A stretch of DNA of 27,633 nt from a virus (Duplodnaviria; Heunggongvirae; Uroviricota; Caudoviricetes). The DNA is taken from the IMG/VR virus record IMGVR_UViG_2630968911_000005, one strand, 5' to 3'. The notes below the pieces were generated by a model. That model saw only the letters and a list, made by a program, of their open reading frames with translations. It had not been told where the DNA came from and searched no databases. Numbering within the stretch: position 1 is the stretch's first letter; the number at the start of each line of letters is the position of its first letter. A program made the translations under genes and the position numbers. Positions 4,396-8,005 of the stretch are shown here, in pieces.

Positions 4396-4580
4396 TGTGC
4401 ACATCCTTTTGGCATCAGACGTAAACGAGCCAGCATTGAAACAATGCATATTTTATTTAATAGCTCCCGTTCTTGTTTTCTCTTGTTAATGGCATCTTCA
4501 GTAAATACTGGGTTACTGATAGTGACACCAATTTCAAAACAACCTTCAGACGTATTAACGTTTGGTAATAACGTTTTCAT
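4392..4580 (-). CDS. Small hypothetical early-region protein (62 aa)
   Basis: ATG at 4578-4580 with GAGGA about 9 nt upstream. Sits where lambdoid phages carry kil/cIII-like small genes. Function not recognisable. Confidence 0.5.
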   Translation of the reverse strand: MKTLLPNVNTSEGCFEIGVTISNPVFTEDAINKRKQERELLNKICIVSMLARLRLMPKGCAQ

Positions 4581-4663
4581 TATCGCGTCCTCAACAATGA
4601 ATTTTGTGATGCAGTGCCTGGTGCCTCCAGGTGACGTTAACCAGTTAACAATTAACGCCGGAT

Positions 4664-4993
4664 ATGTGCTGTGGCAGCCGCATGTTCTGGTTCGATAAGT
4701 CTGACGAACGGGCGATATTCAGCGATATCAGAAAAGAAGGATACACATTACGCAATGGGAGACGCTTGATTATCAGCCCTGACATTATCGCAGATTTTCG
4801 TGCATTATCATTTGCAGACGCATCTTTTTCGATGGTTGTATTAGACCCTCCGCATCTTGAGAGTGTTGGTGATAACGCCTGGATGGGAAAGAAATATGGA
4901 CGGCTGAATAAAGATGCCTGGCGTGATGATTCGCGACAGAGATTTAAAGAAGCCTTTCGGGTGTTGAGGCCGCACGGCGTTCTGATTTTTTAA
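4664..4993 (+). pseudogene. Truncated DNA N6-adenine/N4-cytosine methyltransferase fragment (DPPH motif)
   Basis: ORF contains SFSMVVLDPPH followed by RVLRPHGVLIF, the pattern of amino-methyltransferase motif IV and a downstream block. It stops right after, with no continuation in any frame. Confidence 0.5.
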
Positions 4994-5415
4994 TGGAATG
5001 AAACGCAAATACCGGTAAGCCAGATTCTGGCACTGACAGACAGAAAACCTGTTATCTGTCAACGAACAGGGAAAAAACGATAAAACCCACTGGATTATTT
5101 TTATGAAAGAGGCATCCAGTGAGTAGATTCGTAAGGCTACAGATACGTATATCTGAATAATTAAATTCAGTTCTGTAAATAAAATTTAATCCTTAACCGG
5201 ATGGATTTCTGCACCCTCAGAACATCAGGAGGCCGCCCGAAAGGGCGGTAGTGAAATGCGAAAGTTCAAAATTATTATTGAAACGGGAATAGCTGGTGGA
5301 GATTTTGAGGATGTATTCGAAGTGGACGATGACGCAACACCTGAGGAAATTCATGACGGAGCATAAGAAATTTTCTTTAACTACTGCAATTACTCATACC
5401 ACGAAATAAAAGACG

Positions 5416-5607
5416 ATGAGGAAGAACAAAGTGGCTGATTTTTGTTCAGCTAAATATAACATCAGTTTTGAAGAGCGGGATGAACTATTAATGGACTATG
5501 GTGAGTTACGCGGTGGAAGTGCTGCTGATGTCGAATCCTAGCGTGATGACTATGAAGCGGGAAAAACTCCGGTCGAAGCATATTGTGATGAGTGGGGCGA
5601 TGAATGA
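5416..5607 (+). pseudogene. Small ORF with in-frame amber codon (TAG 5539-5541); read-through frame stays open to TGA 5605-5607
   Basis: Manual translation: MRKNKVADFCSAKYNISFEERDELLMDYGELRGGSAADVES-TAG-RDDYEAGKTPVEAYCDEWGDE. The extended frame ends in an ATGA overlap with the next ORF. Confidence 0.3.
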
Positions 5608-5891
5608 GCGAGATTAATTATCAGGAAGGGCATGAAACGGCGGGGCAAGCAAAACCAGTGGCATGGCGATATCGCTACGTGAAAAAAGGCGTTACGGACT
5701 TTCAGGGGAAGTAGTGGTCTGGTGACTGGAAATATGTACCGAAAAAAGAGGATTGTAACGACAGGCCGAACTATCAAATTCAGGCCTTATTCACTGCCTC
5801 ACCAGTCCCAGTTACATCAGAAGAACTGGTTAAAGCTGTGCACTTTTATGAACAACTAAAACGCGAAAATCCACCAACATCCGGCAACTAG
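5604..5891 (+). pseudogene. Small ORF with in-frame amber codon (TAG 5712-5714); 95-codon frame if read through
   Basis: Manual translation: MSEINYQEGHETAGQAKPVAWRYRYVKKGVTDFQGK-TAG-WSGDWKYVPKKEDCNDRPNYQIQALFTASPVPVTSEELVKAVHFYEQLKRENPPTSGN. The downstream segment reads like protein and has no stops for 58 codons. Confidence 0.3.
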
Positions 5892-6145
5892 ATTAATGGA
5901 TTAACTATGTCGGTTAAACGACCAGCCAACTGAAAAAGCGGAAACCTGATTACAGGTTGCCAGATAAGGCAATGAGCTACCTGGCGCGGAACGGACTGAT
6001 AAGTATGGGGAATGTTTTACGATGAACCTTTAGACTAAAGAGTTTGTAACGCTATGTAAGTGATTTTTTCTGGTTTAGATATTTATATGTCCGGCCAAAT
6101 TGAGGTGTGTTTAAATGTAATTGCACATTGATTGTAGGAGGAATA

Positions 6146-6325
6146 ATGAAAAACGCATTGCAGTTTTTGTTTGTTGCGTTCTGGTTGTTCGCATCATGTA
6201 TGCCCATCATCTTCACAGCAAGGTATATGGAAAAAGTTGATGTTTTGATATTAATATTTGGATATATAAATGCCCTTTTTTTAGGGGTGTTCATGGCGGT
6301 CATGTGCATTGAATACTGGCGGTAA
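6146..6325 (+). CDS. Small hydrophobic protein (59 aa, two predicted transmembrane segments)
   Basis: ATG at 6146 preceded by AGGAGG 6 nt upstream. Product MKNALQFLFVAFWLFASCMPIIFTARYMEKVDVLILIFGYINALFLGVFMAVMCIEYWR. Confidence 0.45.
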   Translation: MKNALQFLFVAFWLFASCMPIIFTARYMEKVDVLILIFGYINALFLGVFMAVMCIEYWR

Positions 6326-6659
6326 ATACAGCGAACTCCATTGGTTTAGTTGGATATTTACTGTGCTGGACAAAAACGGTTTGCGGGGAAATCTTAGTTA
6401 AGTAGAATGACTGCGGGTGCTTGAGGCTATCTGCCTCGGGCATGGACACCAACGGCAGATAGAGAAAAGCCCCAGTTAACATTACGCGTCCTGCAAGACG
6501 CTTAACATTAATCTGAGGCCAATTTCATGCTAGACACATGTAGGTTAGCCTCTTACGTGCCGAAAGGCACGGAGAAGCAGGCTATTGTTAACACCAAGCT
6601 GTAATGTCCCCTTTGAACCATTCTAAAATGTCCCCAGACAATTCTCTGGGGGATTTTTC

Positions 6660-7973
6660 ATGATCAAAGAGACTGTTACGATGAGTCATAAGGAACTCCA
6701 CCGACTTCAGATTATTCAGGAACAAGCTGCGGCACGCATTGGCATTTCTATTCGGCAGGTTAAACGTCTGGTGCAACGGTATAGAAATGAAGGGCCTTCT
6801 GGTCTGGTTTCCCACCGACGTGGAAAGCGTCCTAATAATTCCTTTTCTACTGAATTCAGAGCAACAGTAATTTCACTCCTCAAAGGCCGTTACGCTGATT
6901 TTGGACCTACGTTTGCGTGCGAAAAATTGCGCGAGATACACGGTTTATCTTTATCCGTTGAAACTCTCAGAAAGTGGATGATAGAAGAGGGGTTATGGCG
7001 TGAACGCCGTCGTAAAATTGCCCGTATATATCAACGCCGCATGCGACGACCATCTTACGGTGAACTGATCCAGATTGATGGCTCACCTCATGACTGGTTT
7101 GAAAATCGAGGCCCCAGATGTACACTGATCGTTTTCATTGATGATGCCACCAGTGCGTTGATGGCGTTGCGTTTTGTGCCTGCTGAAACAACCCGGGCTT
7201 ACATGGAAACCCTCCGGGGTTACCTTAATGATCATGGCGTACCGCTCGCTCTCTACTCTGATAGACACAGTATATTCAGGGTAAATAACCCAGAGCGGGA
7301 AGGTGAGCTGACCCAGTTCACTCGTGCGATAAAGACACTGGGCATCGAGCCAATCCATGCCAACAGCCCGCAGGCAAAAGGGCGGGTAGAGCGCGCCAAT
7401 CAGACACTACAGGACAGGCTGGTCAAAGAAATGCGGCTTCAGAATATCAGTGATATTGAAACAGCAAATGCATGGTTGCCGACCTTTATTGAAGCCTATA
7501 ACAACCGGTTCGCTACGTCGCCTCGTACTACTGATAATGCTCATCTTGATGTGCACCATTCTGAAGAGGAACTGGGTTATATCTTCAGCCTACAGGCGAA
7601 GCGCGTTCTGTCTAAAAATCTCACTTTCCAGTACAAAAGCAGTGCGTTTCAGGTACGCAGTGAGGGCCGGGGATATCGACTTAGGCATTCGGTTGTTACT
7701 GTATGCGAGAACTTTGACGGTGAAATTAACGTTCTGTATGACGGGAAAGCGCTGGGCTGGGAAAAGTATGTTGATGGCCCGGAGCCTATACCACTGGATG
7801 ATGAAAAGAGTGTCCATGAACGAGTGGATAATGCCCGTATTGATTTACGCTCAAAATACTATGTTAAACCTAAAGCTGACCATCCCTGGCTTACGCGCCG
7901 AACGCAAAGTCATCAGCAAGTTAAGCCCCCGAAGTTACCTAAAAAGAAGCCTGATCCCGATAAAAAAGATTGA
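6660..7973 (+). CDS. DDE transposase/integrase, rve superfamily with N-terminal HTH; IS481-family or ISNCY(IS1202-group)-like
   Basis: 437-aa ORF. N-terminal pattern RQVKRLVQRYRNEGPSGLVSHRRGKRP; catalytic D (IQIDGS), D (LYSDRHSIF) and E (GRVERANQTLQ). RBS GGGGGA upstream of ATG. Confidence 0.8.
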   Translation: MIKETVTMSHKELHRLQIIQEQAAARIGISIRQVKRLVQRYRNEGPSGLVSHRRGKRPNNSFSTEFRATVISLLKGRYADFGPTFACEKLREIHGLSLSVETLRKWMIEEGLWRERRRKIARIYQRRMRRPSYGELIQIDGSPHDWFENRGPRCTLIVFIDDATSALMALRFVPAETTRAYMETLRGYLNDHGVPLALYSDRHSIFRVNNPEREGELTQFTRAIKTLGIEPIHANSPQAKGRVERANQTLQDRLVKEMRLQNISDIETANAWLPTFIEAYNNRFATSPRTTDNAHLDVHHSEEELGYIFSLQAKRVLSKNLTFQYKSSAFQVRSEGRGYRLRHSVVTVCENFDGEINVLYDGKALGWEKYVDGPEPIPLDDEKSVHERVDNARIDLRSKYYVKPKADHPWLTRRTQSHQQVKPPKLPKKKPDPDKKD

Positions 7974-8005
7974 AACCAAGATCGATTCGGTTGAGTGCAT
8001 TGATC

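What the first reader, a model, noticed from the sequence alone, without database searches (positions are those of the whole stretch)
5231..5935. Consecutive small ORFs each interrupted by an in-frame stop, with preserved frame and ATGA coupling
Three short ORFs each continue in frame past their stop (TAA 5364-5366, TAG 5539-5541, TAG 5712-5714). The second extended frame ends in an ATGA overlap with the third, which stays open 58 codons past its TAG. This favours nonsense-mutated real genes over chance, or genes read only in an amber-suppressing host.
Basis: seen in the sequence. Interest (0 to 1): 0.45.

Follow-up and report, generated by a model that had tools for sequence, protein, structure and literature searches.

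The report
Decayed small genes in Qin prophage
Three tiny neighbouring phage genes in the defective Qin prophage of E. coli have each been knocked out by a point mutation to a stop codon; this is ordinary gene decay, and the public annotation already marks two of the three as pseudogenes.

Summary
TAA 5364-5366, TAG 5539-5541 and TAG 5712-5714 each interrupt a frame that continues for 23, 21 and 58 codons, and an ATGA overlap sits at 5604-5607. The window is the Qin cryptic prophage of E. coli, about 100% identical to strain G4/9.

Intact copies in other lambdoid prophages and phages have sense codons at exactly these positions: AAA (Lys), TGG (Trp) and CAG (Gln). There the three genes form a translationally coupled set of 60, 58 and 119-171 codons. 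They belong to DUF7167/phrog_1997, phrog_519 and phrog_660, all of unknown function.

In the Qin lineage, private substitutions are mostly non-synonymous (14 non-synonymous or nonsense against 6 synonymous). Polymorphisms shared with relatives are mostly synonymous (2 against 13), Fisher p = 0.0016. The number of stops fits neutral decay.

Gene 3 has further damage: a second TAG (5889, CAG in relatives), an in-frame 84-nt deletion and a 4-nt frameshift. The methyltransferase upstream is also broken. The TAG-5539 sequence is exact in 496 of 5,426 complete E. coli genomes, and no sense allele exists on this haplotype.

Amber suppression is not supported: the stops are of mixed types, frameshifts are present, and the window has no tRNA. 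RefSeq (PGAP) already labels genes 1 and 3 as pseudogenes. Already known, low interest.

The parts
5256..5438 (+). Gene 1 pseudogene (DUF7167 / phrog_1997; 60 codons when intact). It is interrupted by TAA 5364-5366.
   Evidence: With the stop repaired, the product hits PF23768 at 51.6 bits (cut-off 24.4) and phrog_1997 at E = 1.6e-29. Intact 183-nt orthologues are present in L002, L004-L006 and L011-L014. PGAP labels it 'DUF7167 family protein, internal stop'.
5364..5366 (+). Ochre stop TAA, derived from AAA (Lys) by an A-to-T change at 5364.
   Evidence: All 9 non-Qin relatives have A at 5364. No E. coli genome has the AAA version on this haplotype.
5431..5607 (+). Gene 2 pseudogene (phrog_519-like; 58 codons when intact). 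Its start has degraded from ATG to GTG and it is interrupted by TAG 5539-5541. PGAP does not annotate it.
   Evidence: Intact 177-nt orthologues WP_000753060.1, WP_000753058.1 and WP_000753053.1 are annotated in relatives. The repaired product hits phrog_519 at E = 1.6e-13. Among 15 private substitutions there are 9 non-synonymous changes and 1 nonsense change. 'none' is annotated under the match in RefSeq genomes.
5539..5541 (+). Amber stop TAG, derived from TGG (Trp) by a G-to-A change at 5540. The present context is CCTAG.
   Evidence: Eight of 9 relatives have TGG; L005 has an independent TAG on different flanking sequence. The native 61-mer is exact in 496 of 506 genomes. The TGG hybrid is exact in none.
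5604..6025 (+). Gene 3 pseudogene (phrog_660; the long form is 171 codons). It carries two amber stops, an in-frame 84-nt deletion and a 4-nt frameshift deletion.
   Evidence: Aligned to the intact L012 gene WP_001289995.1. The repaired product hits phrog_660 at E = 5.7e-45, and the intact form at 6.4e-72. PGAP labels it 'hypothetical protein; frameshifted; internal stop'.
5712..5714 (+). Amber stop TAG, derived from CAG (Gln) by a C-to-T change at 5712.
   Evidence: The codon is CAG in L006, L012, L013 and L014, CCG in L005 and L007, and TCT in L011. The TAG is shared with the Rac-located copies L002 and L004. No full-length exact CAG allele was found on this haplotype.
5889..5891 (+). Second amber stop in gene 3. 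The long-form orthologue has CAG here.
   Evidence: Alignment with L012.
5604..5607 (+). ATGA overlap: the gene 2 stop TGA and the gene 3 start ATG.
   Evidence: Read directly from the sequence. It is conserved in all relatives.
4664..5126 (+). Upstream SAM-dependent DNA methyltransferase pseudogene. It is 5'-truncated, has TAA 4991-4993 (from AAA), and has a +1 frameshift near 5066-5075.
   Evidence: Alignment with the intact copy in Stx2c phage L016. PGAP marks the equivalent gene in strain SW071618 as 'frameshifted; internal stop'. It gives a weak Methyltransf_11 hit.
5227..5249 (+). AGGAGG followed by a GNRA-loop hairpin, ending 6 nt before the gene 1 ATG. This is probably the ribosome-binding arrangement of the ancestral operon.
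   Evidence: Fold energy is -17.1 kcal/mol with z = -2.6. The element is conserved in relatives, with pair-preserving changes. Its function is inferred, not tested.

Best explanation
The region holds the remains of a three-gene, translationally coupled set of small early phage genes. The set lies in the accessory region downstream of the replication genes and upstream of hok/ydfU/Q in lambdoid phages. It has decayed neutrally inside the defective, vertically inherited Qin prophage of E. coli.

Each gene was hit by a single-base substitution that turned a sense codon into a stop: AAA to TAA, TGG to TAG and CAG to TAG. Gene 3 and the methyltransferase upstream carry further nonsense, deletion and frameshift lesions. 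The frames look 'preserved' only because base substitutions outnumber indels over so short a stretch.

The lesions are old and fixed. They are found in about 500 of 5,426 complete E. coli genomes. The products are not made, and in this strain the native early promoter region has also been deleted.

Shown: the orthology, the ancestral codons, the relaxed constraint, the fixation and the extra lesions. Inferred: that no full-length protein is made, and that decay was neutral rather than selected. The ancestral functions are unknown. Genes 1 and 2 encoded very acidic proteins of about 60 aa (pI about 4), typical of small phage early proteins that bind host proteins. That last point is inference only.
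For: - The window is Qin: it carries dicB, ydfD, relBE, hokD, ydfU, cspB/F/I, pinQ and ydfK, and positions 1-25000 are about 100% identical to strain G4/9.
- Intact orthologues with sense codons at all three positions occur in 9 independent prophage or phage copies.
- Family membership of the repaired products: DUF7167 at 51.6 bits, phrog_1997 at 1.6e-29, phrog_519 at 1.6e-13, phrog_660 at 5.7e-45.
- Private substitutions in genes 1 and 2 are 14 non-synonymous or nonsense against 6 synonymous. Shared polymorphisms are 2 against 13. Fisher p = 0.0016.
- Gene 3 private changes are 4 synonymous, 4 non-synonymous and 1 nonsense.
- About 5% of random substitutions in these genes would be nonsense. 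That gives P(2 or more nonsense among 20) of 0.19-0.34, so there is no excess.
- Further lesions in gene 3 and in the methyltransferase.
- The start codon of gene 2 has degraded from ATG to GTG.
- The stop-bearing 61-mer is exact in 496 genomes, and the sense-codon hybrids are exact in 0.
- PGAP marks genes 1 and 3 as pseudogenes with internal stops.
- No tRNA and no Rfam element lie in the region.
Against: No expression data were available, so low-level read-through or use of the N-terminal fragments (36-aa peptides) cannot be formally excluded. Parts of the region downstream of the stops carry few private substitutions: gene 2 codons 38-58 have only one, and it is synonymous. The stretch is too short for that to mean anything. 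The polarity of substitutions was inferred by simple majority among 9 relatives, not from a full phylogeny. These phage genes are also mosaic: the gene 3 allele is shared with Rac-located copies.
Confidence: 0.93

Rival explanations
1. The genes are still functional and are expressed by stop-codon read-through. This would happen either in hosts carrying an amber suppressor tRNA or through programmed read-through that gives low, regulated amounts of full-length protein.
For: The frames stay open for 23, 21 and 58 codons after the stops, and the ATGA coupling is intact. Two of the three stops are amber. The part of gene 2 downstream of its stop has only one private substitution, and it is synonymous.
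Against: - Gene 1 and the methyltransferase have TAA, which an amber suppressor does not read.
- Gene 3 needs two ambers read through and a 4-nt frameshift corrected.
- The stops are sense codons in every functional relative, so they are not conserved recoding sites.
- The substitution pattern is relaxed.
- The window has no tRNA.
- The native promoter region is deleted in this strain.
- From general knowledge: natural E. coli isolates do not normally carry strong suppressors.
Confidence: 0.02
2. Inactivation was selected rather than neutral. The small early proteins, made by leaky expression from the prophage, were harmful to the lysogen. Knock-outs were therefore favoured, which would explain why every gene of the set is hit and why relatives show independent lesions.
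For: Independent lesions occur in relatives:
- a TAG at the same Trp codon of gene 2 in phage 606R7 (L005);
- an AA insertion in gene 3 of L002 and L004;
- a 1-nt deletion in L010;
- a 61-nt deletion in L011.
All four adjacent genes in the window are broken, while many other Qin genes are intact.
Against: The number of nonsense changes is what neutral substitution predicts. Known toxic Qin genes (dicB, ydfD, relE, hokD) remain intact in the same element, so there is no general purge of toxic genes. Most of the roughly 1,500 more distant copies are annotated as intact. No toxicity data exist.
Confidence: 0.05
3. The ORFs are chance open frames, or the stops are sequencing or assembly errors.
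For: The ORFs are very short (36-41 codons as listed mechanically).
Against: The repaired products give strong family hits. Intact orthologues evolve under purifying selection. Identical stops occur in 496 independently sequenced complete genomes.
Confidence: 0.005

Closest known systems
RefSeq/PGAP pseudogene annotations at the same locus in E. coli (e.g. H4P48_RS22725 'DUF7167 family protein, internal stop' and H4P48_RS22225 'hypothetical protein, frameshifted; internal stop' in strain G4/9)
   Same: These are the same DNA, and the same two lesion classes are recorded.
   Different: PGAP does not annotate the middle pseudogene (gene 2, 5431-5607). In G4/9 it treats the truncated methyltransferase ORF as an intact protein. 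It does not name the ancestral codons.
Gene decay in E. coli cryptic prophages (Qin, Rac, DLP12, e14, CP4-57) (general knowledge)
   Same: A defective, vertically inherited prophage accumulates nonsense mutations, frameshifts, deletions and IS insertions while a few useful or addictive genes stay intact. In the window, IS3 and ISNCY elements, a truncated tail-fibre gene and a deleted immunity region lie around the locus.
   Different: There is nothing essential. This locus is absent from K-12 Qin as I recall it, so it has not been discussed in the K-12 literature. That absence was not tested here.
Conditional-lethal amber mutants of lambdoid phages (e.g. lambda Sam7, Oam29, Pam80), which are read only in supE/supF hosts (general knowledge)
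   Same: Phage genes are interrupted by a TAG that arose from CAG or TGG by a single transition.
   Different: Those are laboratory-selected single mutations in essential genes that are otherwise under selection. Here the stops are of mixed types (TAA and TAG), lie in dispensable genes, are accompanied by frameshifts and relaxed constraint, and are fixed in natural isolates.
Dcm (CCWGG) 5-methylcytosine deamination hot spots for amber mutations (lacI, Coulondre and Miller 1978; recalled from memory)
   Same: TAG 5539 now sits in CCTAG. That is the product expected from CCTGG by deamination of the methylated C on the complementary strand.
   Different: The required CCTGG precursor was not found. 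Relatives have GCATGG, and no E. coli genome carries TCCTGG on this haplotype. The order of the flanking changes and the G-to-A change is unknown. The other four stops are not in Dcm contexts.

Membership tests
Pseudogene (disabled copy of a protein-coding gene) | Intact homologues exist that encode a full-length protein across the lesion | tested here: met
   Intact 60-, 58- and 119-171-codon orthologues occur in 9 prophage or phage copies.
Pseudogene (disabled copy of a protein-coding gene) | The lesion is derived: the homologous codon is a sense codon in relatives | tested here: met
   The ancestral codons are AAA, TGG, CAG and CAG at 5364, 5539, 5712 and 5889.
Pseudogene (disabled copy of a protein-coding gene) | Relaxed selective constraint in the disabled lineage | tested here: met
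   Private changes are 14 non-synonymous or nonsense against 6 synonymous. Shared changes are 2 against 13. Fisher p = 0.0016. Gene 3 is consistent with this. The sample is small.
Pseudogene (disabled copy of a protein-coding gene) | No full-length product is made | not testable with these tools
   This needs proteomics or ribosome profiling.
Pfam DUF7167 (PF23768), gene 1 | Score above the gathering threshold over the full domain | tested here: met
   The repaired product scores 51.6 bits against a cut-off of 24.4, covering profile positions 1-60 of 60. As encoded, only residues 1-36 precede the stop.
PHROG families 1997, 519 and 660 (genes 1, 2 and 3) | Significant profile match | tested here: met
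   E-values are 1.6e-29, 1.6e-13 and 5.7e-45. All three families have unknown function.
Programmed stop-codon read-through or suppressor-dependent gene | The stop codon is conserved among functional homologues, with constraint downstream | tested here: not met
   The stops are sense codons in relatives. The lineage shows relaxed constraint.
Programmed stop-codon read-through or suppressor-dependent gene | A cognate suppressor tRNA or recoding signal is available | tested here: not met
   The window has no tRNA and the region has no Rfam element. The stop types are mixed. The rest of the host genome was not examined.
Dcm hot-spot amber mutation | The precursor sequence was CCWGG | tested here: inconclusive
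   The present context is CCTAG. No CCTGG allele was found among 5,426 genomes, and relatives have GCATGG.

The most novel reading that the evidence does not exclude
The whole small-gene set may have been knocked out by selection rather than by drift. Leaky expression of these very acidic early proteins from resident prophages may be costly to E. coli. If so, the recurrent independent lesions would mark a set of host-interfering phage proteins worth characterising. Those lesions are the Qin stops, the same-codon amber in phage 606R7, the AA insertion in Rac-located copies, and the 1-nt and 61-nt deletions elsewhere.
Probability: 0.06. Interest if true: 0.3.

Novelty: already known. Interest (0 to 1): 0.07.

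Why it matters
It matters little. It is a clean, textbook example of how a cryptic prophage decays. Several adjacent dispensable genes were disabled by single-base nonsense mutations, and those mutations became fixed and are now carried by about 9% of complete E. coli genomes.

The practical value is limited to annotation:
- The middle pseudogene (5431-5607) is missing from RefSeq.
- The upstream methyltransferase ORF is a pseudogene fragment that is annotated as intact.
- Some phage records annotate the stop-delimited fragments as separate 'hypothetical proteins'.

Tried and rejected
- Amber-suppressor reading. I looked for tRNAs in the window and found none, and for RNA or recoding elements and found none in the region. 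The mixed TAA/TAG stops and the frameshifts argue against it.
- Dcm deamination origin of TAG 5539. I searched all complete E. coli genomes for the CCTGG precursor on this haplotype and found 0 exact matches. The idea stays unproven.
- Search for intermediate alleles, meaning a sense codon on the Qin haplotype, at 5364, 5540 and 5712. There were none at 5364 or 5540. At 5712, 11 records fall in the 99%-or-higher identity band, but the top full-length rows are all 98.4%. I therefore interpret those 11 as partial-length matches rather than true CAG alleles. I did not inspect them individually.
- Function of the ancestral proteins. Pfam gave only DUF7167. NCBIfam, PADLOC and PDB sequence searches gave nothing meaningful. 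A literature search for DUF7167 found 0 papers.
- Opposite-strand ORFs (5550-5777 and 5217-5354 on the minus strand). They gave no PHROG hit and are not annotated in any relative, so I rejected them as chance.
- Promoter and terminator scan of 4400-6700. Counts were at or near the shuffle expectation and told nothing.
- Their results could not change the verdict.

Full report
**1. What is there**

I read the sequence and the mechanical ORF list and checked each coordinate explicitly.
- ORF1 starts at ATG 5256 and stops at TAA 5364-5366. The frame then runs 23 more codons to TGA 5436-5438.
- ORF2 stops at TAG 5539-5541. It then runs 21 more codons to TGA 5605-5607, which overlaps ATG 5604-5606 as ATGA.
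- ORF3 stops at TAG 5712-5714. It then runs 58 codons to another TAG at 5889-5891.

With the local base composition, the joint chance of three such open extensions is about 0.001.

**2. Where it is**

Window positions 1-25000 are about 100% identical to the chromosome of E. coli strain G4/9. The RefSeq annotation of that stretch is the Qin cryptic prophage. It runs from integrase, excisionase, exonuclease, ydfD and dicB, through flxA, ydfV, relBE, hokD, rem, ydfU, ydfT, cspF/B, essD, rrrQ, cspI, a truncated tail-fibre gene, tfaQ, pinQ and ydfK, to a truncated ydfJ. IS3 and ISNCY elements interrupt it.

PGAP already annotates 5256-5438 as 'DUF7167 family protein, internal stop' and 5604-6025 as 'hypothetical protein; frameshifted; internal stop'. 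It annotates nothing for the middle ORF.

**3. Orthologues**

The 751-base region has matches in 2,529 of 5,426 complete E. coli genomes. Of the matching records, 509 are at 99% identity or more and about 1,500 are at 90-95%. It also matches 32 phage records.

I fetched 9 copies of the more distant kind: L002, L004-L007 and L011-L014. There the three genes are mostly annotated as intact proteins. They are 183 nt (DUF7167, e.g. WP_001224662.1), 177 nt (e.g. WP_000753060.1) and 360 or 516 nt (e.g. WP_001289995.1).

Translation and a nucleotide alignment show the ancestral codons:
- TAA 5364 is AAA (Lys) in all nine.
- TAG 5539 is TGG (Trp) in eight of nine.
- TAG 5712 is CAG (Gln) in four, CCG in two and TCT in one. 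The two Rac-located copies, L002 and L004, share the TAG.

In the intact copies gene 2 starts at ATG 5431 and overlaps the gene 1 stop by 8 nt (ATGGCTGA). Genes 2 and 3 overlap by ATGA. The ancestral unit was therefore a fully translationally coupled set. In the window that ATG has become GTG.

**4. Gene 3 in full**

Alignment with the long-form orthologue in L012 shows further damage in the window copy:
- an in-frame 84-nt deletion between AATCC(A/G)CCAG repeats at about 5867;
- a second nonsense mutation, since TAG 5889-5891 corresponds to CAG in L012;
- a 4-nt deletion at about 5922 that shifts the frame.

After that shift the homologous reading continues in another frame to TGA 6023-6025. 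This matches PGAP's 'frameshifted; internal stop'. The frame is therefore not preserved throughout.

**5. The neighbour upstream**

The ORF at 4664-4993 is the 5' part of a small SAM-dependent DNA methyltransferase. Compared with an intact copy in an Stx2c phage (L016), the window has AAA to TAA at 4991-4993 and an extra base near 5066-5075. The homologous C-terminus (KTHWIIFMKEASSE) is reached only in another frame and ends at 5126.

In this strain the gene has also lost its first codons to a deletion. That deletion joins it to the dicB side of Qin at about 4661. It removed the immunity and replication region (cI/dicA, cro/dicC, cII, O, lygF) that precedes the gene in PhiR42_1. The native early promoter went with it.

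Four adjacent genes are therefore broken, with five nonsense mutations, two frameshifts and two deletions.

**6. Real genes, relaxed here**

With the stops replaced by the ancestral residues, the products match known families:
- Gene 1 matches Pfam DUF7167 (51.6 bits, cut-off 24.4) and phrog_1997 (1.6e-29).
- Gene 2 matches phrog_519 (1.6e-13).
- Gene 3 matches phrog_660 (5.7e-45; 6.4e-72 for the intact long form).

All these families have unknown function. NCBIfam, PADLOC and PDB sequence searches add nothing.

I took the majority of the nine relatives as the ancestor. Substitutions in genes 1 and 2 that are private to the window lineage are 12 non-synonymous, 2 nonsense and 6 synonymous. Differences shared with some relatives, which are polymorphism among functional copies, are 2 non-synonymous and 13 synonymous. 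Fisher's exact p is 0.0016. Gene 3 shows 4 synonymous, 4 non-synonymous and 1 nonsense private change.

About 4-6% of random single-base changes in these genes create a stop. Two nonsense changes among 20 private substitutions has probability 0.19-0.34. The number of stops is what neutral decay predicts, and no special mechanism is needed. Having only substitutions and no small indels within 5256-5866 is unremarkable at this count.

**7. Population**

The native 61-mer around TAG 5539 is exact in 496 of the 506 genomes that hold this haplotype. A hybrid with TGG restored is exact in none. A hybrid with AAA restored at 5364 is also exact in none.

The CAG hybrid at 5712 matches 1,158 genomes. 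All full-length matches I saw are at one mismatch. The 11 records in the 99%-or-higher band are best explained as partial-length alignments, but I did not inspect them.

All five near-identical copies I read (L001, L003, L009, L010 and G4/9) carry the three stops. This holds even though they differ in upstream deletions and IS content. The lesions therefore predate those rearrangements.

**8. Rivals**

- Suppression or read-through. It would need both ochre and amber stops read, a frameshift corrected, and a promoter that is no longer there. The stops are not conserved in functional relatives. No tRNA lies in the window and no RNA element lies in the region.
- Chance ORFs or sequencing error. 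The family hits and 496 identical genomes exclude these.
- Selected inactivation. It cannot be excluded. Independent lesions occur in relatives: an amber at the same Trp codon in phage 606R7, an AA insertion in L002 and L004, a 1-nt deletion in L010 and a 61-nt deletion in L011. But the stop count shows no excess, and known toxic Qin genes remain intact.
- Dcm hot spot for TAG 5539. The present context is CCTAG, which makes this attractive. The CCTGG precursor was not found.

**9. Verdict**

These are ordinary pseudogenes in a cryptic prophage, and the reference annotation already records two of the three. The ancestral function of the three small genes remains unknown. Genes 1 and 2 encoded very acidic proteins of about 60 aa (pI about 4.05). 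This fits small early phage proteins that act on host proteins, but that is inference only.

Noticed in passing
window 4664-5126 (+): The SAM-dependent DNA methyltransferase is itself a pseudogene. It has AAA to TAA at 4991-4993, a +1 frameshift near 5066-5075, and a 5' truncation at about 4661. Even so, PGAP annotates the 5' ORF (WP_001326992.1) as an intact protein in strain G4/9.
   Followed up: yes
window ~4580-4661: This is a deletion junction. dicB (minus strand) lies directly next to the truncated methyltransferase. dicF and the dicA/dicC immunity region, cII, O and lygF are missing, and Rfam finds no DicF. As a result dicB and the small-gene set have both lost their native promoters in this strain.
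   Followed up: partly
window 5227-5258 (+): AGGAGG is immediately followed by a 7-bp GC-rich hairpin with a GAAA loop (5232-5249), then 6 nt, then the gene 1 ATG. This Shine-Dalgarno / hairpin / AUG layout would bring the SD to working distance only when folded, reminiscent of T4 genes 38 and 25 (recalled from memory). It is conserved in relatives, with pair-preserving changes.
   Followed up: partly
window 6415-6660 (+): This is a second hok/sok-type locus. Rfam finds sok at 6415-6586, but the hok reading frame is cut at about 6585 by the ISNCY element (transposase ORF 6660-7973). The intact version is seen in phage vB_EcoS-640R1 (L004 2774-2986).
   Followed up: partly
window 6147-6325 (+): A 59-codon, strongly hydrophobic ORF is preceded by AGGAGG. 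It is about 99% conserved in L004 and unannotated in G4/9. The phage record instead annotates an opposite-strand ORF as 'hornerin', which looks spurious. This is possibly an unannotated small membrane protein gene.
   Followed up: no
L005 (phage vB_EcoM-606R7) at the codon homologous to window 5539-5541: This copy has an independent TGG-to-TAG change at the same Trp codon of gene 2, on a different flanking haplotype. The record annotates the two halves as separate small proteins.
   Followed up: partly
L002/L004, homologous to window 5682-5880: The Rac-located copies carry the same gene 3 allele as Qin, including TAG 5712, plus an AA insertion in the A-run at 5682-5687. This indicates recombinational exchange between Qin-type and Rac-type prophages.
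   Followed up: partly
window 7825-7974 (+): The K-12 gene name 'ydfW' is annotated on what appears to be the C-terminal part of the ISNCY transposase reading frame (ORF 6660-7973). YdfW may therefore be a transposase remnant rather than a gene of its own.
   Followed up: no
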